Below, piece by piece: positions 9,356 through 64,000 of a DNA stretch of 64,000 bases (position 1 is the first letter of the stretch; every line of letters starts with the position of its first letter). The notes under the pieces are model-generated. The model was not told the DNA's origin, ran no database searches, and saw only the letters and a list, made by a program, of their open reading frames with translations. Position numbers and translations under genes: made by a program. Origin of the DNA: Trypanosoma brucei (lineage: Eukaryota). The DNA is taken from positions 4,384,001-4,448,000 of the forward strand of contig CH464491.1 of assembly GCA_000002445.1 (NCBI GenBank). The letters run 5' to 3'.

Positions 9356-10828
<1,473 letters not shown>

Positions 10829-10978: not shown

Positions 10979-11564
10979 AAATTATGTACTCCGCTTTTTC
11001 CCACCGATGGAATGAAAGGCAGAAACGCTCCAGTATACAAGTTATTTATACCCATATATGCTTATGTACAAGCGACCCGACAGGCTTCGACTCCCACGAT
11101 AGCGCGTCAATCATTGCAAGTGATAACAGCACTAAAGCGGAAGTTCATAATGGAGGAAAAGGTAAGTAGTATGTGCATATATATATATATATATATATGC
11201 TATCCTAGGGAGGAAAAATAAAAGGGAGACGTGCCACACAGGACGTGGCACAAGGCAACATTACAAATGGAACGTATGGTATAGCACACCAAGTATTATA
11301 ACAACCCCCCCTTTCCCCATATTAAACACATCACCGGCAGACTCACTTTTCCATTCACTTCCGCGCAAAGTAACGGCACTGGCAAAACATGAAGAAGCGA
11401 TGAGAGGTCAAGAAAGAGACCGGCGACAGTAAGAGAGCACATACCATGACATTACACCCCAACCGAAGAACAAACACGCAAGCAAAGTAACCCCGGGAGC
11501 AAAATGAATCCGCATCCACAGCAATGGCACAACCCAAACGAAGGTTACGAAAATTTTCTGCTCC

Positions 11565-20906: not shown

Positions 20907-20948
<42 letters not shown>
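20907..20948. repeat. (AC)7(AT)14 compound microsatellite
   Basis: Direct reading. Confidence 0.95.
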
Positions 20949-20953
<5 letters not shown>

Positions 20954-22746: not shown

Positions 22747-22777
<31 letters not shown>

Positions 22778-23632
22778 TACTTTTGAAGGTCCGATGCATC
22801 ATGCTTCAAGCGGAACAACAAACCAAAGAGGAAAATAATAATAATAATAGCAATATAATAGCAATAAGTAATAGTAATAGTAATAATGACAGCACATGCA
22901 CTCATATATACATGCAAGTACACATAAGCACACATGCGTGCATATACACAAAACGGAAAAAGAAAAAAAAAGACATAACATAACATAACGTGCCACGTCA
23001 TCTTGTATATGCATTTGCATCTTTCTCTCTCGCTCTCAGCGTAAATATATGCATACTCATTTATGTGTTCACAGCAGCAGCTCTTAGTCCCATACGTACA
23101 CCTACACATGTAGGTCAGGTTGGTGTGCTGGCTGACTCATTACGTTATTGCTTACAAGCGTGCTTTTTAAACAAAACATGAACGCACCAGGGTAAACCCC
23201 TTAAAAAAGGAAAATATTACCAATCCAAATAATAAAAAAAAACATAAATGCACAACAGTGGGGACAAGTGCGGGTATATACATATGTATATATATACACT
23301 TACTTATAAAGAACCAAATGAACCCAAATTACCATACAATTCAGCATCCCACTCCGCATGGAACGCACATTATATTAAGGAAAGAAAAAGAAGTTTCATG
23401 TGAAAATGAACGTATTGGAACTTCAGCCCCTCAGGGCCCTCCACATTCGCCTCCCTATTCTTTATGTATCGCCTTCCTTCCTCAAATTCCTTTATTCCTT
23501 CATCCTCTTCTTTTGATTAGTTTAGCGCTGCTGCCCTTCCATCTTCTCATTCACGCCCCATCCTCTGATAGTTACATATTTACACCTCTTTTCCCACTCT
23601 TTACTCCTTTCATCAGGTGTTTTCTTTTTTCT

Positions 23633-23638
<6 letters not shown>

Positions 23639-23670
<32 letters not shown>
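23639..23670. repeat. (AT)16 microsatellite
   Basis: Direct reading. Confidence 0.95.
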
Positions 23671-23673
<3 letters not shown>

Positions 23674-23950
23674 TATTACCTCCCCCTACCCAATCCATAT
23701 CCTAGCGGTTGCCATGTTCATTCTATTCCACATTTCGTGCCTCTGCTTTTTTTTTCGTCTATCCTCTTGTTTTGTTTTGTTATTTTTTTGCTGTGCTTGT
23801 TTCTGTTCGTGTGGGGAAGGGGGAGGGGGGACTTTCACCGTTGTTTTCCCCTTCTCCCTTTAAAGAAAAAAAAAAATTAATTCCTTATACAACCGAGATG
23901 ATTTCTGGTGTCAACATCGCTTCTACTCCTGCATTCCACTTAGCCGCACC

Positions 23951-35400: not shown

Positions 35401-36742
35401 TATATTATTCTTAGCTTTTTTTATTATTACCTTATTTTTTTATTTTTCTCATTTTTTCATACTTACTTACATTTTTTGGTAATTTCTTTTTTCCTTCTTT
35501 TTTTCTCTTTTCCTTCGTTTTTTTTTGTTTTTTTTTTGATTCTTTAGATCTCCCTCCCCTCCCCTCCCTTTCCCATTGGAAATTACGGGACATCCAACAG
35601 GTTCAATAAAAAGGGGGAAAAGAAAGGAAGGCAGAAGGAACCTACGGAAAATACGCACAAAACTAAACTACAAAAAAAAGTAATAATAATAATAATAATA
35701 ACCCAGCACATGCCTAAACATGGACTTCCATTATCTCAAATGCATAGGTGCATATGTATATATATTATATATATATATATTATATATATATATATATGTG
35801 TATTTATATATGTATGTAAACATGTGCGTACGATTAGGTAATATGGGCGCTACGTATTCTTAATGCATTTGCACATCCAGTTTCCCTTAATCGCTCAAAC
35901 ATCTTCCAAATAGTCAGAGACCATAAATTACACCACTACAAATGTTTTTTCCCCCTTCCACGTGCGCCACTCTGGTAAATGGGAAACACGAAGAAAAGAA
36001 AAAAAGAGGAAAAAAAAAAGAAAAGAAAAAGAAAAGAAAAAAGAAAAGCACCGCCGATGTAAAATAATAATACTTTTCCCTCCGTTTTGTTGTTTTTTGT
36101 TGTTGTTCAAACCAACATATTATATGAAAAGCCTCATCGCTTGAAACTCGGCAGCACACCAACAACTCCTAACCGATTAATCAAAAATAAAAATAAAAAT
36201 AAAGAGGAAACAGGAGGCCCAGAACCGAGCAGACGGATTACAGATGAATACACCAAAGGGATTGTGTGGTAAGTTTTTTTTTCTCTCTTCTTTTAAAAGA
36301 AATAAAAATATAAAAATAAAAATCAAGAGCACTTAAACAAAAAGAAAAAAAGAAAACAAAGAACTCATGTATCTTTTCATATATTTGTTAATATAAGTCG
36401 TTTCGCACCACACAACGCTTCACTATAATCAAAATAAGCTGAAATAACCACCTCGAAGAGGAGGTGAGGTGAAGAAGAAAATAAAAAAAAACACCACGAA
36501 ACAAAGAACGGAAGAGAAGAAAAATCACGCGCGCATAGAACAAAGACAAAGAGACAAAGATAAAATAAAATAAATGTAAAGAAACAAATAAAAAAGCAAT
36601 AAAGGCTAGCAGTAATGGCAAGGAGGCCAAAAAAAAAAAACACGGAAAATAAAAAGAAAACAGACCTAACCCCATTCCTCGCCTCATTTCCAAAGACAAT
36701 CATAAAATATCATCCGAAAAACAATCTCCAACACACCCCTCA

Positions 36743-37849
36743 TCATCCGCCAGGCCCTGCAGTTAAAAGTCCTGTTTCGCTCAAACCAAGTGGTGTACAA
36801 TACCCAAATCCATCACTGCTAACCGTTACAATATCATCACCCATGCAAACGCTGTCGTCATCATCCACATCTTCAACACAACTACTCGCATAAGATGTTA
36901 AACCAACGCTAAGACCTTCACCCGATTCATCCCTACATTTAATAAAGGCACCAACACCAATCAGACCCGAAACCGAAGAACTTAACGAAACATTGGATTG
37001 CAGTTTTCTTCTACTTTCCAATCCCTCAACCGCAACAGCAGGAGGTACTGCCCCTGAATCAGAAGTAAATGGTTGCTCCTCCCCCTGCTCCATATGGTGA
37101 GTTTGTGTTTCGCAAGGCAGTTCATCATCACCTGTCCAAAAGAGCGTCTTACGCTCACGTAACTTTTGAAGAAGTCGCTCTTTCCGATACTGCAAAGCAC
37201 GCACCCGCTCAGCACCACCACCACTACCACAATAAAGCGTAAAGTTACCACTACTGGTGACATCATGACTCGCTCCACCAGCACCAGCACCCGCACCAGT
37301 GGAGCTGCTAAGAGATGTTAAATCAAATAGCCGAGCGCAAGCAATATTACGCCGTACCTGCTCGAAACTCAACTGGCCCAACTCCTCCGCGAGGTTTGTG
37401 GCAAACTCACGCCATTGCCGCCTCACTTCCGTCACCATTCCGCCACAACGCGCGAGGTGTAACCGCCGAGCCTCCCCGAGCAGAAGCCGCAGGGAAATGC
37501 AGTCATAACCGTCAGATGCGAACCGCTCGCGCAATCCACAACGCGGCGGAAGCGCATTCCCCGCTTCAAACTGCTGCGACTGCTTCTGATGTTGATGTTG
37601 ATGTTGGAAACGAAGGCCTTCGAGCATGCGAATGTCAACACGTGGATCAGACGATTGAAGAGGTCCCGTGCTGAAAGTGTACCGTGAACATTCCTCCATC
37701 TCCTGCTCGTAATCAATTTCCAGGTATTCCGGCGCGTGTTGTTGTGATTCTGATGGTGATGATTGTTGTGACTCCTCCGACCCGAGGGGTTCCACCGAAC
37801 TCACCGCAGACCCACGACCAAACAACCGCATTAACCCGAAAAATGTCAT
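36743..37849 (-). CDS. Hypothetical low-complexity protein (~369 aa from MTFFGLMRLF...)
   Basis: ORF 36743..38146, with start reassigned to the internal ATG at 37849 because the upstream 98 codons run through TA/T-rich low-complexity DNA. Contains (HQ)n, (GA)n and an acidic DDDD stretch. No family recognised. Confidence 0.45.
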   Translation of the reverse strand: MTFFGLMRLFGRGSAVSSVEPLGSEESQQSSPSESQQHAPEYLEIDYEQEMEECSRYTFSTGPLQSSDPRVDIRMLEGLRFQHQHQHQKQSQQFEAGNALPPRCGLRERFASDGYDCISLRLLLGEARRLHLARCGGMVTEVRRQWREFATNLAEELGQLSFEQVRRNIACARLFDLTSLSSSTGAGAGAGGASHDVTSSGNFTLYCGSGGGAERVRALQYRKERLLQKLRERKTLFWTGDDELPCETQTHHMEQGEEQPFTSDSGAVPPAVAVEGLESRRKLQSNVSLSSSVSGLIGVGAFIKCRDESGEGLSVGLTSYASSCVEDVDDDDSVCMGDDIVTVSSDGFGYCTPLGLSETGLLTAGPGG

Positions 37850-40635
37850 GCGAAAAGTGGACACAGAATGTAAATATATAAATAAATAGAACAGGTAAAC
37901 ACCAAATATATAAATAAATAAATATATATATAAACGCTCAAAAAAGGAAACAAAAAAAACAACAGTCAAGCAATAAAAATAATTTTTATAATCGCGATAA
38001 TAACTGATGTTATTTCCGGGACGGGGACGACCAGCTTCTGCAGTCTTTTTGCTATTGTCTTCCTCCTCCTCACTATTATTTGCTGCTGCGGTACTGCCAA
38101 AATCCGTTTCTTTGCTTGTTTGTTTCACTTCACACCAACGCGGCAAGTCCCACCCTCGTTTCTAACGTTCTCCTATTCTTCTTTGTTTATTTATTTGTTT
38201 CTGTTGTTGTTGTTGTTGTTTTCTCGGAATTATCTTCTTTTTTTTCTTTTTTGAAGGGAAGAGCGTTATTTTGCCCCTTCGCCTCCTTCACGTTGATGTT
38301 GTTAAGAAGTCAGAGAAATACGAGAAAACAAATAAAGCAATAAAGAAGAAACAGCCCTCTAATAAGTAAATATATAAATATTTATTAATTTATATAAGCG
38401 CTCGACCGAAACAAACACCTTCCGCACTCACTAGACTTCGAGAGAAAACAAATATGAATGAAAATGAAAAGTAAAAGTAAAAAGTAAAAACAAAGATAAA
38501 AAAGCCGCGAAAAGAAACAAAATATAAAAATTTATACTTCCCCCCTCAAAAAAAAAAAAAAACAACAAAAACAAAAACAAAAACAAAAGCTTTCTAAAAA
38601 CAAGATGATGGAAACAAGAAGGGATCCGATCCGACCTCAGCGGCAGTCGCCCCTCACGTTAAACGCACGATTTCACTTCAGGCAGCAGCTGCCTTTTAAA
38701 CGGAATGATAAGTTTAATAAATGGTAAAAACAAAAAAAAAGAAAAGAAAAAATCAATCAATTAATTAATTAAAAAATAAAAAGCGCAAACAACAAACAAA
38801 CAAATGTTTTTTTTTTTTTTGAAAAGGTCTCAACTCCTTATATATATATATATATACACGTACCTCTCACGATCCTTTTCCTTATTTCTTTTTATTTCTT
38901 TTTATTTTTACTTCCCTTAATCCTGCTGCTTGTCTCACTCTTCCTCAAGGACAAAATCGAACCAATGATATTGCCAATAATGAAACAAATAATAAATATA
39001 TTCAATGAGTAAACAGTAATGGTTGTGTTAAATAATAACAATATGTCGCTTGGTGTTGTTATTTATTATTATTTCCTTCGACACAAAACAAAAAAAAGCA
39101 CAAAAGGGAAGGAAAAAACCTTGTGAAGCTAAAATAATAAAAAAAAAAATCACTCCGTACGCCACAGAAAAGGGGTGATGTAACAGAAAGATGTTAAAGT
39201 GTATAAATAAAATTGATGATTTGACTCAAATAAATGGGGTAAACAAACAAACAAAAAGAGAGAAAGCACACCTTCGAAGCCGCACCGGTGGTTAAGTAAC
39301 TGCACGAAACAATATATTTTACTAAACACAAATATATTTATCTATATTTATATATAAATAAATATAAATATATATTTCTCAAAAGAAAGAAAAAAGAAAA
39401 CTATTTTTCCCTTAAGGGTTGAAACGGAATGAAAGAACAGGAAAAAAGAAAATAATACAAGAAGACTAAAACAAAGGACTAACACTACAGAAGAACAAAA
39501 AACAAAACAATTAACAAGAAATATCTTTTTTTTTTTTTAATTGTTCTCTTTTGTTTTAACTCGTGTGTATGTGCTACCTTATCCTTTGCTAACGTGTGCA
39601 AATGGCTAAATTAATAGTAGGTTATTATATAAACAGAAAAAAAAAAGCGAAGTAAGATGACAAAGTAATGGTAAGGGAAGCAGAAGCAAAGCACATCACA
39701 AAACGACGCGAATACACACACTAATATTTGTATATTTATAGATGATGAAACTAACCAACAGCGGCAACGAGATGACAACCAGAGCGAAGAGGGGTTGATT
39801 TTTTTTTAAAAAAAAGGAAGAAGGAAGAAGCGGAAGCGGAAGCCCAAAACCGGCAGCTATCGTTTCAATTAACTTTTCAGCAGGACCCTTCCTTTTATTT
39901 CTCCCTGCCTTCACTTTCTGCGTCACTTTGACCCTCCCCTCCCCTCCTCTCCTCTCCCAGATGTTGATGAATGCGATGAGAAAAATATGCGTTGGCGTGG
40001 TGTCCAATATTCCGCGTGTGCATAGAAAAATAAACATATGCATGCCTTAATGTTTCAAATATTCCCCCCCCCCCCGGTTACATATCTTCCTGCTTCCCAA
40101 AGGAGGTTATAACAACACTCAAAAGTACGCCAAAATGAGCGTTGCAACACACAACACCGCCGCTCCACACAGCAGCGATCAAGGCCAAAACCAACGCAAA
40201 GAAATATGAAGTCGCAAAGGCAACAACCAACAGAAATAGTAAAAAAAAAAAAGAGAAAACATCAACATCAACATCAACATCCAATGTTGGAGGCAACAAC
40301 AATAACAACACAGACAAGCACTCCATCTATTCATTGTATCGGGAGGACGAGGGGGAGAGAGGCACAAACTAACGTGAAAAACAGTAGAAAGGGGAAATAG
40401 GAAAAGAAAGGGGAAAATCAAGAGAAACCGCCTCAGAAGAAAAAACAAAAAATACAAAAAAGAACTGAAAGAAGACCCAAGTGTGCAGAGAAGGTAGCAA
40501 TGAAAAAAAAAGAGTGAGCAGGAAGTCTCACATGCCCACCGTCTCATTCCCATCCTTCTTGTTTTGGTCCTCCCTCTTCCATTCTTTGATGTATGTATCC
40601 ATATAATTCCCTTTGGCCTTAGAGGCGCTTAGCAC

Positions 40636-54540: not shown

Positions 54541-57500
54541 TCATAGCGCTCCACGGGGTGGGCGTTGTTCCGAGCGGAGTGCCTGTACAAGTTTCCACGA
54601 GGCCAACCCACGCATGTGCTGCTGCATAACCACAACATATTGGTCCGCGATACTGGCACTATCACCTACAGAGCCTACCTTCTGTGTAGTAACTTGGTAA
54701 TAGTAGTGCCCGAGGCTAGCCCACAGATCCGCACCCTCGGGGGAGTCGCTCACAATGGCTGCCACGGCGGCCGCAATCTCCTCATCGTGTGCTTGAATGG
54801 AACCCCAGTAACGCTCCTTGGCGACGAGCCTCTCCTTCACCGACCGTCTAGCCTTGTACGAACGGAACGCACGCTGAACCTTCATTGCAGCTTCATCTAG
54901 CAGACACTCCGCATCACTATCCGTCACACGCTTCTCCTCCACGAGTGCCTTCCTCCTCTCAACCTCACGCCTGGCTAAATACATCCGCATGAAAGGCAGT
55001 ATCTTTTCGCATGCAGCACTGAGTCTGCGCCTCTCCTCCACGAGTGCCTTCCTCCTCTCAACCTCACGCCTGGCTAAATACATCCGCATGAAAGGCAGTA
55101 TCTTTTCGCATGCAGCACTATGTCTGCGTCTCTCCTCCACAAGCGATCTCCGCCTCTCAACCTCACACCTGGCTAAGTGCATCTGCATCGACGGCAATAT
55201 CTTTTCACACGCAGCACTATGTCTGCGTCTCTCCTCCACAAGCGATCTCCGCCTCTCAACCTCACACCTGGCTAAGTGCATCTGCATCAACGGCAATATC
55301 TTTTCACATGCAGCACTATGTCTGCGTCTCTCCTCCACGAGTGCCTTCCGCCTCTCAACTTCACGCCTGGCCAAATGCATCTGCATGAAGGGCAGTATCT
55401 TTTCGCATGCAGCACTGAGTCTGCGTCTCTCTTCCACAAGCGATCTCCGCCTCTGCAACTCCCTCCTAGCCACTGCACACAGGAGGAATGATTCAATAGT
55501 CGAGGATGGCTTTTCCAACACAGAGCACATACCCTCTTGCTGGGCCATGCGAGCTTCAATTGCATCCTTACGAGCCCTACGCTCCTGTTTGGCACGGAAG
55601 ATAAGGGCCAAGCCATTTAGCACTTCCAGTGCTTCTAGTGGTTCTTCGTTCCTTCGGTTGATAGTAGCCGCTGCACGACGGGAGGCTACCTCCTTCTTCG
55701 ACTGTATGATGCGCATGAAACCTTTGAGAACTTCAAGGGCATCACCTACATTCGAAACGCATTCTGGTTGAGGGCGCTCTGCAAACTGCCTCGGTGTTCT
55801 AGGTGGCATGCGGCAACTAACATGCATCATGCTAACCTTCGCACGCAAGAAAGACAAAACGACGTTTACGCGGCGCAGCCGCCGAAACTGGTCCGTGCCG
55901 TCCATAACCAGGCGAGAACATTTCTGAAGCTCCTTGTACTCCAGATCGGGTGACTCCGACCGATCTACCCCGATCCTGCAGTTCACGTAGTCGGCGAAAA
56001 GTTCCCGCAACACACGGTAGTGTAGGCGAGCAAGATATCCTCGTGCTAAGCGAGTGATTGCCAACGCCGCTTGGTCCCTTAAGTTATTGGCCTCTTCATC
56101 TTGTGACCGGTGTTGAGATTGCAAATTTGATGAGGACTCCGCTGATTTCGAGTACGTTCGCCTCGGGGCCACTGGTCGTTGCCGCATGAGTGGTGGACGA
56201 GGCAACAGCGTTAGCACCTCTTCCGCGGTTTCAGCCTCTGCAATCTTCCGCAAACGATATTCGTTTGCCTCCAAGCGACTGTTGCAGCAGTCATTGTAGA
56301 ACTTTATTTCATCCTTCCGCACTTGTCGCCACTTTTCTCTTTCTTCGGCTAGTGCGGCACCCAGGGCAGACTTCTCTTGGTGTCCCACCACCTCACACTC
56401 CCCAACAACATCAAAAGAGCGATCAATTCCTTCATGCCCCAAAGGCTTAACGATTTCTTCAGCCGAATGCCCACCATTATCCGGCCTCGCAAATTCTCCT
56501 ACAGGTTCATTAATATCTAGGTTTAGCTCCGTGGCCGACGGCTCAACACCTTCCAAGTACAATGCTGGCCGCTCCCCGGGCTCTGAATACATAGCATGCT
56601 CTTTTATCAATGACAATCCGACACGCTCCTCCGGAATAATAGGCGTAGCAAGGTGCTGCAACTCAGGTACAACACCTACATCCCCTGGAGAACACGGCAT
56701 CGTCAATTCCAACTTAACGCCTTCTGCGCGCGGGGTGGGTTTTTCTGGCACTTGCTGGCACGAGATGGCAGGTTCCTCTTGGACAGCTCCGCTGGCACTT
56801 CCCAATCCCCCGACCCCTGGCAGCCGCTCGATTTGCTCGTCCCCAGCCAGTGGCAACAGTCGCCCTGCACCGTTAGCTAACGGTTTTGGTAGCCTTGAAT
56901 CCTCAGCGGGTGACGGTAGCAGCTGACAAACGCTCCTGTGAGAGGTCAGAGACCCTTTTACCTTTGGCATCACGTCAAGTGGTGTTGGAGATAACGCGGA
57001 GTGATGCCTGTCATTTGTACACCCGTCGGGTAGTGACCGACGCATAAATGGAACACCTTCCAATCCCCCTCTCACGCTGGAGGGCTCATGAACTCTATGG
57101 TGTCCAGAAACGACCGTTGACGAACGGTTAGCCTCTTCAAGATCGCGCTCCCTCCGCACAAACTCCTGGACCTCCACTGCCATTTGATAAAGTGATCGGC
57201 CCAGTGAAAGCCGGACGAAGTAAGCGCGGCCAATTCTTTGCATAGTGAACGCAAACGCACTAAGACGCGAGTCCAAGAGTTGTCTTCTGCGTTCCTTTTT
57301 CATACGCTTCAGGAGAGATTTCGACCGATAGAGACGGTACGCACGCTGAATCTTCGAAGCTGCCCGACTCTGCAGGCAATGACCACGAATGCGCCTTGCT
57401 GCGTTCTCACGAGCAACATCGAGCAGAGGCCCTGCATTTCTCGCCACAATAATCCGCCTGCCAAAGGCCTGAAGCTTCTTGGCAGCATCGCACCGCCGCT

Positions 57501-60500
57501 GGTGTTCACGAAGTCTCTCTTCACGCGCGGCCCGCAGTTCCCTCATTTTATTGAGCTCCTTTCTAGAAATATACAAACGCCACGCCTTTTGGATTTTCCG
57601 CGCGGCGGATAAGTAGCGAGCTTCCAGATGCCTTCGCCGGAGTCGAGCCGCCCTCAGCCTCGCCTCCCGTGTCTGCTGCTCTGCCCTTCGTCTCCTCCAC
57701 TGGCTCTGTATGACCGTGGCCGCAACTTCTTGCCGTTCCCTCAGGGCCACCTCGTTTTTAACAAGTTGATGCATTTCTCGCAGTTTCTCCACCCTTCGGG
57801 TTGCCATAACCTTGCGCCACCACGTCTGCAGTCGGAAGGCAGCAGAAGATGCGTTATTCTTCAAGAACTGCCTCCGCGCTAGACGCCGTCGGGCCCGCCA
57901 CTGCCGCGCACAGCACTGGATACGCACAGCGGCCCTGTTTATTTCATTGGCAAGAACGTCACGGTTCTTGTAACGTGCGGTAGAACCCGATCTTATACTC
58001 AGGTGCCTCCTAAAAGTCCTTTGAATCTTACGGGCTGCTATTGACCTTCTTACCCCATCCAGTACACGGTCGCGGGCGCTTTTGGACTTTACTGCCTCGA
58101 ACAACTGTCGAGCCTTGAAAGCACGGTAAGCTCTTTGAATGGTAACCGCACAGCCCGACTTGCGCCACAAATCTTCCTCATCGAACAAAAGCATATCTAA
58201 GCGATCAACAACGTACGTAACAAGATTTGCTCCAGGTGGGAGGCCCTGGATCCTTCTTGACGGCGCATCAACGGACAATGGGGGGACGCCCGGTCCCATA
58301 ACACTGGATTTGGAAATGGGCGACCTGCCTTGTTTATCCTTGGCGGCAGAAAATGGAGAGGCCTTTGGTTGAGGAAATTTCCTTACAGGAGACCCCGTAT
58401 CGTTTGAAGGTGCATTGGGTGATAGTCGCCCGACGGCGCTGTGGGCATCAGCGGCATGCTGACCCCGGCGCGCAGCCCCCTCAACCTCCATGGTAACAGT
58501 ATGGAGTTTCTTCTTAGTTGCGTCGTGAGTGGCAGCGGCCTGATGAGTCGGACGCGAGGATGGTGAAGATTCGCGAGCTGAAGAAGATACCCTCCTGCCA
58601 GTCTTGTTACCTGTACCACCGGCTTGCTGATTGTGCAGAAATGGAGCATCAGGATCCGCAGCAACGGATTGCATTTTCCTTCCCGAACTGTCGCGAGCAG
58701 CAGGCGACTGCGCAACCGGTCGGGTGCGCTCTGCATTGGGGGATAACTTCCTGCCGACAGCGCTGCGGCCCCCAACAGCCTGATGGGTCGGACGCGAGGA
58801 TGGTGAAGATTCGCGAGCTGAAGAAGATACCCTCCTGCCAGTCTTGTTACCTGTACCACCGGCTTGCTGATTGTACAGAAATGGAGCATCAGGATCCGCA
58901 GCAACGGATTGCATTTTCCTTCCCGAACTGTCGCGAGCAGCAGGCGACTGCGCAACCGGTCGGGTGCGCTCTGCATTGGGGGATAACTTCCTGCCGACAG
59001 CACTGCGGCCCCCAACAGCCTGCTGAGTCGGACGCGAGGGCGCTGACGGCTCCACAGCAGCAGACTGCGTCCTTCCTTTGGGACTGTTACGTTGACCTGG
59101 GGTCCTCTGATTCGAGCCGGTTGCTCCCACACTTACCGGCGAAGACTGAGCATTCGGTTGTGAGAGGGAGATGTTTGACCTCATCGAACCCTTCATTGGT
59201 GGTCTACATTCAGATCGACTGGCACCACTCTTCGCATTGGACTTTGTGTGCACCGACTCATTGTCGGCAAAACCTGCACCTTTCCCTTGGGACCCGACAT
59301 CACCAGGTCGTGCCGTAGCTTCCCGTTTATATGGCATTCTCGTAGCGGCGACGGGAGACCTTGTAGCCACTGAGAGCGCAACGCCACCTTTATTTGAAAC
59401 CCTCTCATTGTTTTTGGTCAAAGATTTTGACTGTTCACCCACATTCGCCCCACGGTGGTGCTCGGAGGGGCCACCAGACTCGCGTAACGTAGCCCTCGAG
59501 CCCTGCGAAATGGGTGGAAGACGACTAGCATTCGGCGAAGCTCCACCCGATTTCGTTGAATTACCGCCCTTCAAACCGCTGCCATGGGAAGCAGACCCGC
59601 CATTTGTCTGGCTCTGCCATGCAGCAGGCCTCGACAGTGATGTTTTCGAATTTACCCCGGGTGCTGTTGCCGCCGCTGCTGCGGCACTCGGTGGATGACC
59701 GGCGTCAGCACGGGCCGGACGCGAGATGCTACGCTTCGCAACGGTTTCCTTGGCACTCACCGCGAAAGGGTGAGGAAAGATGTCCACACGATGGGTCCTA
59801 GATGCAGCATCCCGACCACTGGGTGAACGTTCCCTGCTGCAAGACCGCGGACTAACAAACAAGGTGTGTCCGCAGGATGAGCGGGGTGAGTTCGTACCCG
59901 TCAAAGCTGAATTACCCGGTCGACATTCGTGAAGCACCATGACAAACCGCTGCATATTACTTTCGATCGTTCTTGTGACCTCACTCCTCCTACTGATCGT
60001 ATTCTGAGCCAAACCCAGCGCCAACCGATACTCTTCATGAGCACGTGGGGGGTCGATCAACTCCAGAGCCATAGCGAGGTTGTGGTGCGCCACTGCTAGC
60101 AAAGAAGGGTCCTCAGGATTGGGCCCAAGACTTTGTATCGCACACACCGCACTATGCGCGGCTTCTTCACATAACCTCAGTTGCACCTGCACAGCACTAA
60201 TGTTTAGGAACGCTACGGGGGATTGTTGCCCCGTGCATTGCATCGATTGCTGCATGTAGTCCAGGGCAGTAGTAAAATGCCCCCGGTGGCGCTCCATGCA
60301 ACCGTGGTTGTTCAGGGTCACGCCGCGCAGTAGTCGGCGGCGCTCATCGTCTTTGCGCAAGGGAAAGGAACCCTCTCCTGTCATCTCCATGGCGTAGCCA
60401 AAGAGAGGTGTAGCAACGTCATATTTTCCTTCCTTGAACAATTTTACACCGAGAACATTGCACTTCATCACAACACGCTCCGCAGCGTCACATGCCTCCT

Positions 60501-60720
60501 TTAGGAGCTCAGGGGATGACGACCCCGTTCCATACTCCTTGCAGCGTATCTGGAGCGCAGTCTCCATCAGTTGCAAGCATTCCATGTCGTTGCCTCCAGC
60601 CTCAAGCGTGGATGCACGGTACTCCATCTTCCGCGCATCCTGCAGAGTCTCCTTCCCAGTAAGACCCGAAGAGGGGTGATGCGGGCCATCTTTGCGTGCA
60701 CTAGACGCTGCGATGGACAT
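54541..60720 (-). CDS. Giant modular protein (2059 aa): N-terminal TPR-like helical domain, Ser/Pro/Ala-rich disordered region with 80-aa x2 repeat, about ten IQ calmodulin-binding motifs, and C-terminal 33-aa x5 near-identical tandem repeats
   Basis: IQ motifs read directly: IQRAYRAFKARQ, IQRTFRRH, IQCCARQWRARRR, IQSQWRRRRAEQ, IQKAWRLYISRK, LQAFGRRIIVAR, IQRAYRLYRSKS, MQRIGRAYFVRL, LARGYLARLHYR, VQRAFRSYKARR. TPR-like N-terminus (AAHSAVCAIQSLGPNPEDPSLLAVAHHNLAMALELID...). Repeats are confirmed at the DNA level. Confidence 0.85.
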   Translation of the reverse strand: MSIAASSARKDGPHHPSSGLTGKETLQDARKMEYRASTLEAGGNDMECLQLMETALQIRCKEYGTGSSSPELLKEACDAAERVVMKCNVLGVKLFKEGKYDVATPLFGYAMEMTGEGSFPLRKDDERRRLLRGVTLNNHGCMERHRGHFTTALDYMQQSMQCTGQQSPVAFLNISAVQVQLRLCEEAAHSAVCAIQSLGPNPEDPSLLAVAHHNLAMALELIDPPRAHEEYRLALGLAQNTISRRSEVTRTIESNMQRFVMVLHECRPGNSALTGTNSPRSSCGHTLFVSPRSCSRERSPSGRDAASRTHRVDIFPHPFAVSAKETVAKRSISRPARADAGHPPSAAAAAATAPGVNSKTSLSRPAAWQSQTNGGSASHGSGLKGGNSTKSGGASPNASRLPPISQGSRATLRESGGPSEHHRGANVGEQSKSLTKNNERVSNKGGVALSVATRSPVAATRMPYKREATARPGDVGSQGKGAGFADNESVHTKSNAKSGASRSECRPPMKGSMRSNISLSQPNAQSSPVSVGATGSNQRTPGQRNSPKGRTQSAAVEPSAPSRPTQQAVGGRSAVGRKLSPNAERTRPVAQSPAARDSSGRKMQSVAADPDAPFLYNQQAGGTGNKTGRRVSSSARESSPSSRPTHQAVGGRSAVGRKLSPNAERTRPVAQSPAARDSSGRKMQSVAADPDAPFLHNQQAGGTGNKTGRRVSSSARESSPSSRPTHQAAATHDATKKKLHTVTMEVEGAARRGQHAADAHSAVGRLSPNAPSNDTGSPVRKFPQPKASPFSAAKDKQGRSPISKSSVMGPGVPPLSVDAPSRRIQGLPPGANLVTYVVDRLDMLLFDEEDLWRKSGCAVTIQRAYRAFKARQLFEAVKSKSARDRVLDGVRRSIAARKIQRTFRRHLSIRSGSTARYKNRDVLANEINRAAVRIQCCARQWRARRRLARRQFLKNNASSAAFRLQTWWRKVMATRRVEKLREMHQLVKNEVALRERQEVAATVIQSQWRRRRAEQQTREARLRAARLRRRHLEARYLSAARKIQKAWRLYISRKELNKMRELRAAREERLREHQRRCDAAKKLQAFGRRIIVARNAGPLLDVARENAARRIRGHCLQSRAASKIQRAYRLYRSKSLLKRMKKERRRQLLDSRLSAFAFTMQRIGRAYFVRLSLGRSLYQMAVEVQEFVRRERDLEEANRSSTVVSGHHRVHEPSSVRGGLEGVPFMRRSLPDGCTNDRHHSALSPTPLDVMPKVKGSLTSHRSVCQLLPSPAEDSRLPKPLANGAGRLLPLAGDEQIERLPGVGGLGSASGAVQEEPAISCQQVPEKPTPRAEGVKLELTMPCSPGDVGVVPELQHLATPIIPEERVGLSLIKEHAMYSEPGERPALYLEGVEPSATELNLDINEPVGEFARPDNGGHSAEEIVKPLGHEGIDRSFDVVGECEVVGHQEKSALGAALAEEREKWRQVRKDEIKFYNDCCNSRLEANEYRLRKIAEAETAEEVLTLLPRPPLMRQRPVAPRRTYSKSAESSSNLQSQHRSQDEEANNLRDQAALAITRLARGYLARLHYRVLRELFADYVNCRIGVDRSESPDLEYKELQKCSRLVMDGTDQFRRLRRVNVVLSFLRAKVSMMHVSCRMPPRTPRQFAERPQPECVSNVGDALEVLKGFMRIIQSKKEVASRRAAATINRRNEEPLEALEVLNGLALIFRAKQERRARKDAIEARMAQQEGMCSVLEKPSSTIESFLLCAVARRELQRRRSLVEERRRLSAACEKILPFMQMHLARREVERRKALVEERRRHSAACEKILPLMQMHLARCEVERRRSLVEERRRHSAACEKILPSMQMHLARCEVERRRSLVEERRRHSAACEKILPFMRMYLARREVERRKALVEERRRLSAACEKILPFMRMYLARREVERRKALVEEKRVTDSDAECLLDEAAMKVQRAFRSYKARRSVKERLVAKERYWGSIQAHDEEIAAAVAAIVSDSPEGADLWASLGHYYYQVTTQKVGSVGDSASIADQYVVVMQQHMRGLASWKLVQALRSEQRPPRGAL
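54931..55462. repeat. 99-bp tandem repeat, ~5.3 near-identical units, in-frame coding (33-aa units ...RRRHSAACEKILPxMQMHLARxEVERRxxLVEE...)
   Basis: Unit ctcctccacgagtgccttcctcctctcaacctcacgcctggctaaatacatccgcatgaaaggcagtatcttttcgcatgcagcactgagtctgcgcct repeated with few substitutions. Also produces the spurious + strand ORF 54989..55771. Confidence 0.9.
58540..59045. repeat. 240-bp tandem repeat, ~2.1 units, in-frame coding (80-aa Ser/Pro/Arg-rich units)
   Basis: tgatgagtcggacgcgaggatggtgaagattcgcgagctgaagaag... recurs at 58551, 58791 and (partial) 59021. Produces the spurious + ORF 58518..59318. Confidence 0.9.
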
Positions 60721-61083
60721 CAGTTCGTGGGATCACTAACCTGCTTGACCTTCAACCACTAGACAGCTCCGTACAAACAGCTACCCCTCCCCGTCCAACC
60801 GCCCAGACGCTTCTACACCCTTCACTCCGTTTATTCTATTACGTCGGGTCCTTCTCGATTGGAGTGACTTCCTCTGGAGACCTAATACCACCGAGTACAA
60901 ACGATGAGATATTCTGCGAAATGCAACACACACACACACACACACGCACACACTTTCCTGAGCGTCACCCACACCTGCAACTATAAATACAAAGGCGGTA
61001 CCTCACAGGATATTCTTTCTCTAGTCCTCCCCTTGTTAAGAAGAAAAGAGCTTTGACACAGAGAAGCGGGAGAGGTGAAAAGG
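59690..61083. repeat. Copy A of a ~1.4-kb direct segmental duplication (first 343 codons plus 363-bp 5' flank of the IQ/TPR gene)
   Basis: Aligned by eye to 62135-63541. About 6-8 point differences plus a (CA)n length difference. Confidence 0.9.
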
Positions 61084-62101
61084 GGGAAATGCGCGTCAAC
61101 AACAGATGAACCGTCAATCGAGCTGCGTAGAGAAACATTTGGGTAAAAGAGAAATAGGAAAGCAACCAACTCATGGAGCACCACAAAGATATATACATGT
61201 ACATGTCACAAAGTAGTACATACGCACCCACCGGTCCGCGGGGGGATAGAAAATGAAGCAAAAAGAAAAACATACACTGAGAGGGAAGCCCGACACAATC
61301 GAAAACATTCAGGAGGACTAGCTGAGGTCACTATGAGTATCACCACAGTGTCCCTCTACCCCTTATAGGGAAACAATGCCATATTGCATACTGGCAACAA
61401 AAAAAAAATAACATGTGCAAGTACCTCACCGGGTGTGCAACGTGTGGAGCGCAAGTGCTGACGCGTACTATGGTAAGAAGCACACAAGGCCTGGGCTACG
61501 GATGGAAGTTACCGCACAAGGCTCACTCGCATGCGCCAATGCAAGGGACAAACAGCGGCCAACACACCAACGCTACGTGCACCTCCTGCTCAGAGAGATC
61601 TAAGAAGTTTCCTTCTGTCTTCACTTGCAGCTGCCTCCTACATCCGGACAGAAGATTACGTCCTACGAATGCAGTGTAAGGTGCCAGCCCCGTCCGCAAC
61701 TTTAGCCGGGTACAAATACATTGGTCTAAGTTATGAAATTCAAACATTCGTAATCTGTTCAAGTCCCCCTTCATGAGAAAACACACACGAGCAGTAAACA
61801 TTTAAAAAAAATTATGAAGCTCACACTCCCCGTGTACCGCTCCTTCCGACAAAAAAACTATTATCGGCTCCACTTGTAGCGCACATGTAAGTGAACGTGA
61901 TGGATGTAACGATGAGTACAACAAATTTAGGTCCACTTACCGCAGCTCAAAAAACAGTGGCAGCAATTTATAGACGAAACATGGAGAATATAAGCAAAGG
62001 TGTCGCCATCATTTGAACTCCATAACCGTGCCAAATACAGCATAAATGATAGCTTCGTCAGTTAGTTTCTACCTCGTGGAGCCCTGTGAGGTTTAAACGC
62101 A

Positions 62102-63166
62102 CTAATTCATTGGTGATAACGACGTTAAACGCTTTGGTGGATGGCCGGCGTCAGCACGGGCCGGACGCGAGATGCTACGCTTCGCAACGGTTTCCTTGGC
62201 ACTCACCGCGAAAGGGTGAGGAAAGATGTCCACACGATGGGTCCTAGATGCAGCATCCCGACCACTGGGTAAACGTTCCCTGCTGCAAGACCGCGGACTA
62301 ACAAACAAGGTGTGTCCGCAGGATGAGCGGGGTGAGTTCGTACCCGTCAAAGCTGAATTACCCGGTCGACATTCGTGAAGCACCATGACAAACCGCTGCA
62401 TATTACTTTCGATCGTTCTTGTGACCTCACTCCTCCTACTGATCGTATTCTGAGCCAAACCCAGCGCCAACCGATACTCTTCATGAGCACGTGGGGGGTC
62501 GATCAACTCCAGAGCCATAGCGAGGTTGTGGTGCGCCACTGCTAGCAAAGAAGGGTCCTCAGGATTGGGCCCAAGACTTTGTATCGCACACACCGCACTA
62601 TGCGCGGCTTCTTCACATAACCTCAGTTGCACCTGCACAGCACTAATGTTTAGGAACGCTACGGGGGATTGTTGCCCCGTGCATTGCATCGATTGCTGCA
62701 TGTAGTCCAGGGCAGTACTAAAATGCCCCCGGTGGCGCTCCATGCAACCGTGGTTGTTCAGGGTCACACCGCGCAGTCGTCGGCGGCGCTCATCGTCTTT
62801 GCGCAAGGGAAAGGAACCCTCTCCTGTCATCTCCATGGCGTAGCCAAAGAGAGGTGTAGCAACGTCATACTTTCCTTCCTTGAACAATTTTACACCGAGA
62901 ACATTGCACTTCATCACAACACGCTCCGCAGCGTCACATGCCTCCTTTAGGAGCTCAGGGGATGACGACCCCGTTCCATACTCCTTGCAGCGTATCTGGA
63001 GCGCAGTCTCCATCAGTTGCAAGCATTCCATGTCGTTGCCTCCAGCCTCAAGCGTGGATGCACGGTACTCCATCTTCCGCGCATCCTGCAGAGTCTCCTT
63101 CCCAGTAAGACCCGAAGAGGGGTGATGCGGGCCATCTTTGCGTGCACTAGACGCTGCGATGGACAT
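62102..63166 (-). CDS. Truncated paralog (354 aa) of the N-terminal TPR-like region of the 2059-aa IQ protein, produced by a 1.4-kb direct duplication; may be an expressed short isoform or a pseudogene-like fragment
   Basis: First 343 codons are about 99% identical to the 5' end of 54541..60720 (differences: RRRLL vs RRRRL, HFTT vs HFST, RERSPS vs RERLPS). Identical 363-bp 5' flank. The frame leaves the duplicated segment at about 62135 and ends ...HPPKRLTSLSPMN. Confidence 0.5.
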   Translation of the reverse strand: MSIAASSARKDGPHHPSSGLTGKETLQDARKMEYRASTLEAGGNDMECLQLMETALQIRCKEYGTGSSSPELLKEACDAAERVVMKCNVLGVKLFKEGKYDVATPLFGYAMEMTGEGSFPLRKDDERRRRLRGVTLNNHGCMERHRGHFSTALDYMQQSMQCTGQQSPVAFLNISAVQVQLRLCEEAAHSAVCAIQSLGPNPEDPSLLAVAHHNLAMALELIDPPRAHEEYRLALGLAQNTISRRSEVTRTIESNMQRFVMVLHECRPGNSALTGTNSPRSSCGHTLFVSPRSCSRERLPSGRDAASRTHRVDIFPHPFAVSAKETVAKRSISRPARADAGHPPKRLTSLSPMN

Positions 63167-63371
63167 CAGTTCGTGGGATCACTAACCTGCTTGACCTTCA
63201 ACCACTAGACAGCTCCGTACAAACAGCTACCCCTCCCCGTCCAACCGCCCAGACGCTTCTACACCCTTCACTCCGTTTATTCTATTACGTCGGGTCCTTC
63301 TCGATTGGAGTGACTTCCTCTGGGGACCTAATACCACCGAGTACAAACGATGAGATATTCTGCGAAATGCA

Positions 63372-63406
<35 letters not shown>

Positions 63407-63541
63407 CTTTCCTGAGCGTCACCCACACCTGCAACTACAAATACAAAGGCGGTACCTCACAGGATATTCTCTCTCTAGTCCTCCCCTTGTTAAGAAGAAA
63501 AGAGCTTTGACACAGAGAAGCGGGAGAGGTGAAAAGGAGGG
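62135..63541. repeat. Copy B of the ~1.4-kb direct segmental duplication, separated from copy A by 1.05 kb of unique sequence (61084-62134)
   Basis: Same as copy A. Left boundary (copy A 59690, copy B 62135): homology stops within ~5 nt of the shared ggtgga, and the by-eye alignment differs at two positions in that stretch. Right boundary: shared ...gagaggtgaaaagg, after which A continues gggaaatgcgc and B continues aggggttaagc. Confidence 0.9.
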
Positions 63542-63666
63542 GTTAAGCAAACATTCATAAAGTCGCATATTCAATTTAAATGCATCACAACAGAAGCTCC
63601 TTCCTTCCAGCACTTTTCGCTTAAAACTCAAACAGTGAGTATGGTTGCGTTTCGCATCTGCCCTGC

Positions 63667-64000
63667 TCACACCTTTGGCCCCACACCCAACATGCACTCT
63701 TTTCCTTCTCGCTTTTGTGCCACCAAATGTCGTTTGGTGCTGAGAACCCGCACCACCACGTGCCTCCCAGGCAGGACAGTGTCCCTTTTAAGCACAGACA
63801 CTTCTCCCCCCTCCACCAAATATTTGGTATCCACTGCTTCAAACCGCACCAACTTGCCGTCCAACAGGTTCGACCGTAGCAATGCATCAAAAACCTCCCC
63901 CGCACAGGTTCCTCCCTTGAATGGAAAACAGTGGGGAAACGAATTTAGTGGGCGCTCGATCGCATCAACTGGATACACTAAGTGACCGGGGCACAGAGAG
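63667..64000 (-). CDS. Possible 3' end of a further minus-strand gene running off the right edge of the window (C-terminal ~110 codons)
   Basis: Minus ORF 63667..63978 (…KGGTCAGEVFDALLRSNLLDGKLVRFEAVDTKYLVEGGEVSVLKRDTVLPGRHVVVRVLSTKRH…) has complex composition and is open to the window edge. No identity assigned. Confidence 0.3.
   Translation of the reverse strand, partial: SLCPGHLVYPVDAIERPLNSFPHCFPFKGGTCAGEVFDALLRSNLLDGKLVRFEAVDTKYLVEGGEVSVLKRDTVLPGRHVVVRVLSTKRHLVAQKREGKECMLGVGPKV

What the first reader, a model, noticed from the sequence alone, without database searches (positions are those of the whole stretch)
59690..63541. 1.4-kb tandem segmental duplication creates a truncated TPR-only paralog with an identical 5' flank
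Seen in sequence: 59690-61083 and 62135-63541 are about 99.5% identical direct repeats. They cover 363 bp of 5' flank (including a (CA)n tract) plus the first 343 codons of the giant gene. Copy B's reading frame runs 11 codons into unique sequence and stops, giving a 354-aa protein that is essentially the isolated TPR-like module. Because the duplicated flank carries whatever trans-splicing signals serve the full-length gene, the fragment is likely to be processed into an mRNA. The few non-synonymous differences argue it is not a pure assembly echo. Alternatively this is a recent duplication on its way to pseudogenisation, or two divergent alleles mis-joined in tandem.
Basis: seen in the sequence. 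Interest (0 to 1): 0.65.

Follow-up and report, generated by a model that had tools for sequence, protein, structure and literature searches.

The report
Truncated FLAM7 gene duplicate in Trypanosoma brucei
The sleeping-sickness parasite carries a real extra copy of the first third of a flagellar protein gene just upstream of the full gene; it is an ordinary kind of partial gene duplication, kept nearly identical to its parent by copy-correction, and nothing yet shows that it has a function.

Summary
Window 59690-61086 and 62136-63540 are direct repeats: 1397 aligned nt, 10 mismatches and one 8-nt (CA)n indel. They are separated by 1049 nt of unique DNA.

The window is Trypanosoma brucei TREU927 chromosome 11, and the giant gene is FLAM7 (Flagellar Member 7, 2059 aa). 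The same repeat-spacer-repeat layout, with the same boundaries and an intact 354-aa ORF, occurs in T. b. gambiense DAL972 and T. b. equiperdum IVM-t1. It is therefore not an assembly echo or an allele mis-join, and it predates the split of these subspecies.

Eight substitutions are strain-specific yet present in both copies, so gene conversion keeps the 5' ~1.1 kb homogenised. Only the last ~230 nt keep copy-specific differences.

The fragment encodes the whole conserved N-terminal TPR domain (AlphaFold residues 21-266, pLDDT above 90), a disordered tail and 11 new residues. The repeat begins at the polypyrimidine tract expected to drive trans-splicing, so an mRNA is likely but was not tested.

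In T. cruzi, T. theileri and T. melophagium this position holds the proline-synthesis gene P5CS, which T. brucei lacks.

Verdict: a real, lineage-specific partial duplicate of modest interest, with function unproven.

The parts
54541..60720 (-). Full-length FLAM7 (Flagellar Member 7) coding sequence, 2059 aa: N-terminal TPR domain, disordered linker, and an IQ-motif-rich, repeat-rich C-terminal region
   Evidence: The ORF is listed and translated. It is an exact match to XP_829746.1 / EAN80634.1 of T. brucei TREU927. Pfam IQ scores 45.5 bits, above its cutoff.
59690..61086 (-). Repeat copy A (parental): 366 nt of 5' flank plus FLAM7 codons 1-343
62136..63540 (-). Repeat copy B (derived): 374 nt of 5' flank plus 343 codons identical or nearly identical to FLAM7
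   Evidence: Equivalent copies lie in L001 at 9632-11031 and in L002 at 7201-8591.
62102..63166 (-). Truncated ORF of 354 aa: complete TPR domain (residues ~21-266), disordered residues 267-343 including the conserved FPHPF motif, and an 11-residue new tail ending KRLTSLSPMN
   Evidence: The DAL972 orthologue is annotated as CBH18785.1. It is unannotated in the TREU927 GenBank record, where EAN80634 is followed directly by EAN80635.
61087..62135 (.). Unique 1049-nt spacer between the copies. It is the predicted 3' UTR and polyadenylation region of the fragment mRNA and is contiguous with the FLAM7 upstream region. Its 3' part is pyrimidine-rich.
   Evidence: It matches nothing else in the window. 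It is 98.4-98.8% identical in L001 and L002. It shows no P5CS remnant and no Rfam family.
63492..63542 (-). Polypyrimidine tract plus first AG dinucleotides at the very 5' edge of copy B (predicted trans-splice acceptor region of the fragment)
   Evidence: Sequence read directly.
61038..61089 (-). The same polypyrimidine tract plus AG at the 5' edge of copy A. It is the predicted FLAM7 trans-splice acceptor and the element expected to direct polyadenylation of the fragment mRNA.
60926..60953 (.). (CA)n microsatellite in the copy A flank. The copy B equivalent, 63372-63407, is 8 nt longer.
63667..64000 (-). 3' end of the upstream gene (FSH1/RWD/OBG-type GTPase, EAN80635.1). Its stop codon is at 63667-63669, only 126 nt before the repeat.

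Best explanation
This is a genuine partial duplication of the 5' end of the flagellar gene FLAM7, specific to the T. brucei lineage.

**Structure.** A 1.4-kb unit was copied to a site 1049 nt upstream, directly after the preceding GTPase gene. The unit comprises the trans-splice signal region, the 5' UTR and codons 1-343. The copy sits where other trypanosomatids carry the proline-biosynthesis gene P5CS.

**Age and maintenance.** The duplication arose before T. b. brucei, T. b. gambiense and T. b. equiperdum diverged. Recurrent gene conversion between the two copies has since kept the 5' ~1.1 kb almost identical within each strain. Only the last ~230 nt escape conversion often enough to hold copy-specific changes.

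**Expression (inferred).** Trypanosome genes are transcribed polycistronically, and maturation needs only a polypyrimidine/AG signal upstream and another downstream. The copy is therefore most likely matured into its own mRNA. That mRNA would carry the FLAM7 5' UTR and a unique 3' UTR inside the spacer.

**Product (inferred).** It would encode a 354-aa protein consisting of the complete FLAM7 TPR domain plus a disordered tail.

**Function.** I see no evidence that selection maintains the product. The most likely status is a neutral by-product whose ORF is kept open by copy-correction from the functional parent.

Shown here: the structure, its conservation across strains, the conversion signature, the fold and the synteny. 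Inferred: mRNA processing, translation and lack of function.
For: **Repeat and ORFs.**

**Identity of the locus.** T. brucei TREU927 chromosome 11, FLAM7.

**Same layout in other assemblies.** The repeat-spacer-repeat layout has identical boundaries in DAL972 (L001) and IVM-t1 (L002). Each carries its own SNPs and microsatellite lengths, and there are no N-runs inside the region. A Logan contig from another read set crosses the upstream junction, and a second ends 7 nt into the repeat.

**Concerted evolution.**
- Eight substitutions are strain-specific yet present in both copies of that strain (alignment columns 71, 110, 167, 254, 298, 821, 827, 1107).
- The sites that separate B copies from A copies all lie in columns 1177-1402. 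One (1276) does so in all three strains. Four (1177, 1193, 1270, 1402) are shared by the gambiense and equiperdum B copies only.
- Within-strain A/B differences (7-14) are no larger than between-strain orthologue differences (5-13 for A, 11-21 for B).
- Concerted evolution of T. brucei duplicates is documented in PMC1855330.

**ORF.** Intact, with the same tail, in all three strains.

**Fold.** AlphaFold gives pLDDT above 90 for residues 21-266 (11 helices), with the remainder disordered. The top Foldseek PDB matches are the OGT, KLC1 and LGN TPR domains. There are 59 invariant columns across trypanosomatid orthologues.

**Splice signal.** The polypyrimidine/AG signal lies at the repeat edge.

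**Synteny.** The order GTPase - P5CS - FLAM7 - LRRP holds in T. cruzi, T. theileri and T. melophagium, and an Aldedh gene sits upstream of FLAM7 in L. braziliensis.

**P5CS loss.** T. brucei lacks P5CS (PMC5289646; one search found no salivarian homologue).

**Ancestral architecture.** In all strong hits among 1.84 billion representatives the domain sits at the N-terminus of long proteins, so a stand-alone form is not ancestral.
Against: - Expression was not tested. No RNA-seq, spliced-leader or poly(A) mapping, or proteomic data could be examined.
- Divergence among the three strains is only ~1%, so an open 354-codon ORF is expected by chance and says little about selection.
- Copy-B-specific coding changes are roughly 8 non-synonymous to 4 synonymous, all non-synonymous ones in codons 266-343. 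That looks neutral, but this segment is disordered and poorly conserved in FLAM7 itself.
- A selected function is therefore not excluded.
- The origin of the spacer, and whether the duplication and the loss of P5CS were one event, could not be resolved.
- The DAL972 and IVM-t1 chromosomes may have been ordered against TREU927. Their independence rests on their private variants, not on read-level evidence.
Confidence: 0.75

Rival explanations
1. The fragment is a functional, selected gene. It would be a stand-alone TPR protein that binds the same partner as the FLAM7 N-terminus and acts as a competitor, decoy or adaptor, in the way truncated partial duplicates such as human SRGAP2C antagonise their parent.
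For: - The complete folded domain is retained, with the break well outside it (residue 343 against a domain end near 266).
- The conserved FPHPF motif is retained.
- No B-specific amino-acid change falls in the TPR domain. At positions 130 and 150, TREU927 copy B carries the residue shared by all other T. brucei copies, and at 150 this is also the cross-species consensus.
- The ORF and its new tail are identical in three subspecies.
- The splice signal was duplicated with the ORF.
- DAL972 annotators called it a gene.
Against: - Conservation of the TPR part is fully explained by gene conversion, because flank and synonymous sites are homogenised too.
- The unconverted tail changes at about the neutral non-synonymous to synonymous ratio.
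- Strain divergence is too low for ORF survival to be informative.
- No stand-alone form is conserved in other kinetoplastids.
- No expression data were available.
Confidence: 0.2
2. One complex rearrangement both removed P5CS and created the fragment. During replication or break repair, the nascent strand switched from the polypyrimidine tract upstream of P5CS to the similar tract upstream of FLAM7. It copied 1.4 kb, then switched back to the P5CS 3' region (now the spacer). The net effect was to replace the P5CS coding sequence by the FLAM7 5' end.
For: - The fragment sits where P5CS sits in T. cruzi, T. theileri and T. melophagium, and intergenic lengths on both sides are comparable.
- The 5' breakpoint lies in a C-run at the start of a polypyrimidine tract, which is a plausible microhomology site.
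- The spacer runs without a break into the pyrimidine-rich region upstream of copy A, as expected if spacer plus copy A is the original context.
- Only 126 nt remain between the GTPase stop codon and the repeat.
Against: - No P5CS remnant is detectable by tblastn.
- No P5CS homologue was found from T. congolense or T. vivax either, which suggests the loss is much older than the ~2% divergence of the unconverted repeat end.
- The T. congolense data look like a single FLAM7 gene split by a gap, not an extra copy.
- Intergenic DNA is too diverged between species to test whether the spacer descends from the P5CS 3' region.
Confidence: 0.2
3. Assembly artefact: a collapsed or expanded repeat, or two alleles of the FLAM7 5' end joined in tandem.
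For: The copies are 99.3% identical, and T. brucei is a heterozygous diploid.
Against: - A 1049-nt unique spacer lies between the copies.
- The identical architecture occurs in DAL972 and IVM-t1. Variants that separate B from A (columns 1177, 1193, 1270 and 1402, plus column 1276 in all three strains) are shared by those two assemblies and mostly absent from TREU927 copy B.
- Microsatellite lengths differ between assemblies.
- No N-runs lie in the region.

Confidence: 0.02
4. Retrocopy or processed pseudogene of a truncated FLAM7 mRNA.
For: The copy is truncated and lies close to its parent.
Against: - The copy includes the polypyrimidine tract and sequence upstream of any AG acceptor, which a mature mRNA lacks.
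- It has no spliced-leader sequence and no poly(A) tract at its 3' end.
- The junction falls inside the coding sequence.

Confidence: 0.01

Closest known systems
Concerted evolution of tandemly duplicated genes in T. brucei (Jackson 2007, PMC1855330)
   Same: Neighbouring direct duplicates lie in a polycistronic unit. Paralogues within a strain are more alike than orthologues between strains. Homogenisation covers non-coding flank as well as coding sequence. Divergence appears where the repeat structure ends.
   Different: Those arrays consist of complete genes, where duplication raises dosage. Here only the first third of a 2059-codon gene was copied, a unique spacer separates the copies, and the product is a new truncated protein. 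This locus is not mentioned in the main text of that paper.
Partial gene duplicates that encode truncated antagonists of the parent, e.g. human SRGAP2C (recalled from my own knowledge)
   Same: The 5' part of a gene was duplicated together with its expression signals. The ORF ends a few new codons after the breakpoint. The retained part is a complete protein-interaction domain.
   Different: Neither expression nor any interaction or antagonism has been shown for the FLAM7 fragment. The resemblance is architectural only.
TPR domains of kinesin light chain 1, LGN and O-GlcNAc transferase
   Same: These are the best structural matches to the predicted fold (Foldseek E about 1e-4, probability 1.0). 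All are superhelices of helix hairpins that bind peptides.
   Different: Sequence identity is 14-19%. Pfam TPR models score below their gathering cutoffs. The family is kinetoplastid FLAM7-specific and always N-terminal to a long IQ-rich region.
Complex duplications with inserted or retained spacer, attributed to template switching (FoSTeS/MMBIR; recalled from my own knowledge)
   Same: Direct copies are separated by other sequence, and the breakpoints have little or no homology (a C-run at the 5' junction, 1-2 nt at the 3' junction).
   Different: The mechanism cannot be demonstrated from the present-day sequence, and no donor or ancestral state of the spacer was found.

Membership tests
Genuine genomic segmental duplication (not an artefact) | Two long, near-identical copies in direct orientation at defined coordinates | tested here: met
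   1397 nt aligned, 10 mismatches, one indel.
Genuine genomic segmental duplication (not an artefact) | The same architecture in separately produced assemblies or read sets | tested here: met
   DAL972 (L001) and IVM-t1 (L002) have the same boundaries and spacer, with their own variants. A Logan contig crosses the upstream junction.
Genuine genomic segmental duplication (not an artefact) | Two-fold read depth and single reads spanning both copies | not testable with these tools
   No read data are available.
Concerted evolution by gene conversion | Derived substitutions shared by both paralogues of one lineage and absent from both paralogues of the others | tested here: met
   Eight such sites: five in TREU927, two in equiperdum, one in gambiense.
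Concerted evolution by gene conversion | A region outside the conversion tract that retains orthology (copy-specific differences shared across lineages) | tested here: met
   Column 1276 separates B from A in all three strains. Columns 1177, 1193, 1270 and 1402 are shared by the gambiense and equiperdum B copies. All lie in the last ~230 nt.
TPR (tetratricopeptide-like helical repeat) domain | A Pfam TPR model above its gathering score | tested here: not met
   TPR_12 scores 26.1 bits against a 30.1 cutoff. TPR_10 scores 21.5 against 27.5.
TPR (tetratricopeptide-like helical repeat) domain | Fold: a stacked helix-hairpin superhelix matching solved TPR domains | tested here: met
   11 helices with pLDDT above 90. 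Foldseek top hits are the OGT, consensus-TPR, LGN and KLC1 TPR domains, probability 1.0.
FLAM7 orthologue family | N-terminal TPR domain followed by a long IQ-motif region (about 1100-3400 aa in all) | tested here: not met
   Assessed for the fragment. The parent gene meets this feature, but the 354-aa fragment lacks the entire IQ region. It is a derivative of the family, not a full member.
Functional protein-coding gene | An intact ORF conserved across strains | tested here: met
   354 aa with an identical tail in three subspecies. This is weak evidence at ~1% divergence.
Functional protein-coding gene | Purifying selection on copy-specific changes | tested here: inconclusive
   About 8 non-synonymous to 4 synonymous B-specific changes, the non-synonymous ones all in the disordered tail. 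There are too few sites, and the rest of the ORF is homogenised by conversion.
Functional protein-coding gene | A mature mRNA and a protein detected | not testable with these tools
   No transcriptome or proteome data are available. The polypyrimidine/AG signal is present.
Retrocopy / processed pseudogene | Starts at the mRNA 5' end, ends in poly(A), and lacks upstream genomic flank | tested here: not met
   The copy includes the polypyrimidine tract upstream of the acceptor and has no poly(A) at its end.

The most novel reading that the evidence does not exclude
The fragment is an expressed, T. brucei-specific TPR-only protein that modulates FLAM7, for example by competing for its TPR ligand in the flagellum. 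It was created by the same rearrangement that deleted P5CS, so that one event both made the parasite a proline auxotroph and produced a new flagellar regulator.
Probability: 0.07. Interest if true: 0.55.

Novelty: new member of a known kind. Interest (0 to 1): 0.3.

Why it matters
**Practical consequences**
- The first 1.4 kb of FLAM7, including its 5' UTR, exists twice. N-terminal in-situ tagging, 5' knock-out arms, RNAi fragments, short-read RNA-seq or ribosome-profiling counts, and most N-terminal peptides cannot tell FLAM7 from the fragment.
- The fragment is not annotated in the TREU927 GenBank record.

**Evolutionary points**
- It is a clear small example of gene conversion masking the age of a duplicate.
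- It marks the locus where the proline-biosynthesis gene P5CS was lost in the lineage leading to T. brucei.

**If expressed**
- It would be a lineage-specific stand-alone version of a protein-interaction domain that is conserved in all trypanosomatid FLAM7 proteins.

Tried and rejected
1. **P5CS remnant.** I searched the spacer and flanks with T. cruzi, T. theileri and T. melophagium P5CS and the L. braziliensis Aldedh protein by tblastn. Only noise was found (E of 0.8 or worse).
2. **Origin of the spacer.**
   - blastn against the rest of the window gave only the self-match.
   - Sensitive blastn and nhmmer against the syntenic intergenic regions of three other species gave only (GT)n hits.
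   - The positive control, the FLAM7 5' flank, was also undetectable across species, so this test is uninformative.
   - The spacer is not derived from the FLAM7 3' region. That argues against 'whole-gene duplication followed by internal deletion'.
3. **T. congolense as outgroup.** P0001 (273 aa) looked like a possible second truncated copy. It abuts P0033, which starts at T. brucei residue ~280, so the two are halves of one gene split by a gap. No contig was on record for it.
4. **Non-coding RNAs.** An Rfam scan of 59000-64000 gave only sub-threshold matches on the CA repeat.
5. **Solved structures.** None exists for FLAM7.
6. **Literature.**
   - Only one FLAM7 paper concerning trypanosomatids is in the searchable library (PMC4559404, Leishmania flagellar proteome).
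   - Subota et al. 2014 is not held.
   - 'Tb927.11.16890, TPR, hypothetical' appears as a yeast two-hybrid prey of SF3a60 (PMC3961280).
   - Counting accession numbers suggests that ID is FLAM7, but I could not verify the mapping. I draw nothing from it.
7. **T. equiperdum OVI.** Its contig ends inside the FLAM7 240-nt repeat and does not reach the duplication.

Full report
**Observation**

A repeat search and a local alignment confirm two direct copies, 59690-61086 and 62136-63540. There are 1397 aligned nt with 10 mismatches and a single 8-nt length difference inside a (CA)n tract. The copies are separated by 1049 nt of unique sequence (61087-62135). That spacer has no other match in the window.

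All long ORFs in the window are on the minus strand. In gene orientation the order is:
- the end of an upstream gene, with its stop codon at 63667-63669;
- 126 nt of unique sequence;
- copy B;
- the spacer;
- copy A, which runs on into the rest of a 2059-codon ORF (54541-60720).

Copy B carries 374 nt of flank and 343 codons. It then reads 11 codons into the spacer and stops, giving a 354-aa ORF at 62102-63166.

**What the locus is**

Exact-sequence look-ups place the window on chromosome 11 of Trypanosoma brucei brucei TREU927. The giant ORF is XP_829746.1 / EAN80634.1, named Flagellar Member 7 (FLAM7) in UniProt. Its neighbours are the LRRP, COG5, a MAP-kinase-like kinase, TCP-1 alpha, dihydrolipoyl dehydrogenase and cyclin 6 genes.

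The 354-aa ORF is not in the TREU927 protein set. EAN80634 (FLAM7) is followed directly by EAN80635, the upstream FSH1/RWD/OBG-type GTPase. In T. b. gambiense DAL972 the equivalent ORF is annotated as a 354-aa 'hypothetical protein, conserved' (CBH18785.1), lying between FLAM7 (CBH18784) and the GTPase (CBH18786).

**Is it real?**

I fetched the loci from DAL972 (L001) and from T. b. equiperdum IVM-t1 (L002). Both contain copy B, a 1049-1050-nt spacer and copy A, with the same boundaries. Neither has an N-run in this stretch.

These are not echoes of the TREU927 sequence:
- Each assembly has its own SNPs, its own (GT)n length and, in gambiense copy B, a 3-nt deletion.
- The gambiense and equiperdum B copies share four B-only variants (columns 1177, 1193, 1270, 1402) that TREU927 copy B lacks.

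Two Logan short-read contigs from other read sets carry the GTPase gene. One crosses the upstream junction into the repeat. The other stops 7 nt into it, as expected at a branch caused by a repeat.

The 'assembly echo' and 'mis-joined alleles' alternatives are therefore rejected. The duplication predates the divergence of these three T. brucei subspecies.

**Gene conversion**

In a six-sequence alignment, eight substitutions are specific to one strain yet present in both of its copies. Five are in TREU927, two in equiperdum and one in gambiense. If the copies had evolved independently since a pre-split duplication, each site would need two identical mutations. Exchange between the copies explains them simply.

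Variants that separate B copies from A copies occur only in the last ~230 nt of the repeat. One (column 1276) does so in all three strains. Four more (columns 1177, 1193, 1270, 1402) are shared by the gambiense and equiperdum B copies.

In gambiense and equiperdum, the flank and codons 1-265 of A and B differ only by microsatellite length, one 3-nt deletion and one or two point changes. Had the 5' 1170 nt diverged at the rate of the last 234 nt (five shared B-specific sites), about 25 differences would be expected.

TREU927 copy B looks like copy A at four of the five tail sites, which indicates a more recent, longer conversion in that strain.

The 99.3% identity therefore says nothing about age. 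This behaviour matches the pervasive concerted evolution described for T. brucei tandem duplicates (PMC1855330).

**What the fragment encodes**

- *Conservation.* FLAM7 orthologues from Trypanosoma, Leishmania, Leptomonas, Angomonas and others share a strongly conserved N-terminal region. There are 59 invariant columns between residues 33 and 258.
- *Pfam.* TPR models hit it only below their cutoffs.
- *Predicted structure.* An AlphaFold model built on the orthologue alignment gives 11 helices with pLDDT above 90 for residues 21-266. Residues 270-354 are disordered.
- *Fold.* Foldseek against the PDB returns TPR superhelices: OGT, consensus TPRs, LGN and kinesin light chain 1.
- *Breakpoint.* At codon 343 the break lies 77 residues beyond the folded domain. 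The fragment is the complete domain plus part of the linker, including a short motif (FPHPF, residues 316-320) that is conserved as far as Leishmania.
- *Ancestral architecture.* Among 1.84 billion representative proteins, the strong matches carry this domain at the N-terminus of proteins of 1100-3400 aa. The few short ones are from split or contig-truncated genes. A stand-alone form is therefore new to the T. brucei lineage.

**Will it be expressed?**

The repeat starts with a ~50-nt pyrimidine-rich tract (63542-63492; in copy A 61089-61038). This tract is followed by AG dinucleotides 310-340 nt upstream of the ATG.

From established knowledge of trypanosome gene expression:
- Transcription is polycistronic.
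- Spliced-leader addition occurs at the first AG after such a tract.
- Polyadenylation of the upstream mRNA is coupled to it.

The fragment has such a tract upstream. Downstream it has several more in the 3' part of the spacer and in the copy A flank. A separate mRNA with the FLAM7 5' UTR and a unique 3' UTR of roughly 600-950 nt is therefore expected. This is an inference; no expression data could be consulted.

**Is it selected?**

The 354-aa ORF and its KRLTSLSPMN tail are intact in all three strains. At ~1% divergence that is expected by chance.

B-specific coding changes are about 8 non-synonymous to 4 synonymous. All the non-synonymous ones fall in codons 266-342, in the disordered tail. 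This is close to a neutral ratio.

The TPR part shows no B-specific amino-acid change. Conversion accounts for that, because flank and synonymous sites are homogenised too.

I therefore regard a neutral, conversion-maintained by-product as more likely than a selected gene. The data cannot exclude function.

**Genomic context and origin**

In T. cruzi (two strains), T. theileri and T. melophagium the gene order is GTPase - P5CS - FLAM7 - LRRP - ... - COG5. P5CS here is the bifunctional AA_kinase + Aldedh protein of 752 aa. In L. braziliensis an Aldedh gene also sits directly upstream of FLAM7.

In T. brucei the P5CS position is occupied by the fragment and the spacer. No P5CS remnant is detectable.

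T. brucei has been reported to lack P5CS and to be a proline auxotroph (PMC5289646). A search with T. cruzi P5CS returned orthologues only from stercorarian trypanosomes, with none from T. brucei, T. congolense or T. vivax.

Several features suggest that spacer plus copy A is the original upstream region of FLAM7 and that copy B is the derived insertion:
- The spacer runs without a break into the pyrimidine-rich region upstream of copy A.
- The junction upstream of copy B is abrupt.
- That junction lies in a C-run only 126 nt after the GTPase stop codon.

A single template-switch event replacing P5CS by the FLAM7 5' end is possible. If P5CS was already lost in the common ancestor of Salivaria, the two events are more likely separate. 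I could not resolve this. T. congolense data show only one FLAM7 gene split by a gap, and intergenic DNA is too diverged between species for comparison.

**Verdict**

This is a real, lineage-specific partial duplicate of FLAM7 with its own splice signal. It encodes the isolated TPR domain and is kept nearly identical to its parent by gene conversion.

It belongs to a well-known class of event. Its interest is modest and lies in three points:
- a practical caveat for any experiment targeting the FLAM7 5' end;
- a gene model missing from the TREU927 GenBank annotation;
- a marker of the locus where P5CS was lost.

Noticed in passing
window 61087-63666; compare L005 6385-10000, L007 6178-10000, L008 6131-10000, L004 7209-10000: The interval between the GTPase gene and FLAM7 holds the proline-biosynthesis gene P5CS in T. 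cruzi, T. theileri and T. melophagium, and an Aldedh gene in L. braziliensis. In T. brucei, a known proline auxotroph without P5CS, this interval holds only the FLAM7 fragment and the spacer, with no detectable P5CS remnant.
   Followed up: partly
window 58538-59039 and 54933-55459: FLAM7 contains a 240-nt tandem repeat (2.1 copies) and a 99-nt tandem repeat (5.3 copies, 33-aa units). Copy number differs between strains: gambiense has one extra 80-aa unit near residue 561, and equiperdum lacks 66 aa at residues 1835-1900. This gives proteins of 2059, 2139 and 1993 aa.
   Followed up: yes
window 60926-60953 and 63372-63407: The (CA)n microsatellite in the duplicated 5' UTR region differs in length between the two copies and between strains. 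It is the only indel between the copies in TREU927. A Logan contig ends in it.
   Followed up: yes
window 59761-59775 (FLAM7) and 62207-62221 (fragment), residues 316-320: A short motif, FPHPF, lies in the otherwise disordered and poorly conserved linker. It is conserved from T. brucei to T. congolense and Leishmania and is retained in the fragment. It may be a short linear interaction motif.
   Followed up: no
L004 10001-16524 (L. braziliensis M2904, LS997631.1): FLAM7 is annotated as two ORFs (610 aa with the TPR domain, 1471 aa with the IQ region) separated by 275 nt. Another L. braziliensis record has a single 2276-aa protein (P0045). This is probably a frameshift in the assembly rather than a natural split.
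   Followed up: no
P0001 and P0033 (T. congolense IL3000): FLAM7 is represented by a 273-aa N-terminal protein and a 1505-aa protein that begins about 6 residues later. The assembly break falls close to, but not at, the T. brucei duplication breakpoint. A collapsed repeat there cannot be excluded.
   Followed up: partly
window 63541-63669: Only 126 nt separate the stop codon of the upstream GTPase gene from the polypyrimidine tract of the fragment. This implies an unusually short 3' UTR for that gene and is consistent with a rearrangement junction at 63540/63541.
   Followed up: no
PDB chains 9e5c_6r and 9y6s_6s: TPR chains in the cryo-EM structures of the T. brucei and L. tarentolae 96-nm axonemal repeat are among the best fold matches to the FLAM7 TPR domain, at 17% identity. 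They are not FLAM7 itself, because a sequence search of the PDB found nothing.
   Followed up: no
(P5CS homologue list): After the stercorarian trypanosome orthologues (81-99% identity) and a group of unnamed environmental sequences (about 54-60%), the next closest named relatives of trypanosome bifunctional P5CS are from stramenopiles (oomycetes, diatoms; about 45-51%).
   Followed up: no
window 20001-24000 and 34001-40000: These stretches have markedly low G+C (0.31-0.36, against about 0.50 elsewhere) between the minus-strand genes. They were not examined.
   Followed up: no
PMC3961280, Table 2: [quoted passage not shown] Counting GenBank accession numbers suggests this ID is FLAM7, but the mapping was not verified. 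A prey clone from the N-terminus could equally derive from the fragment.
   Followed up: partly
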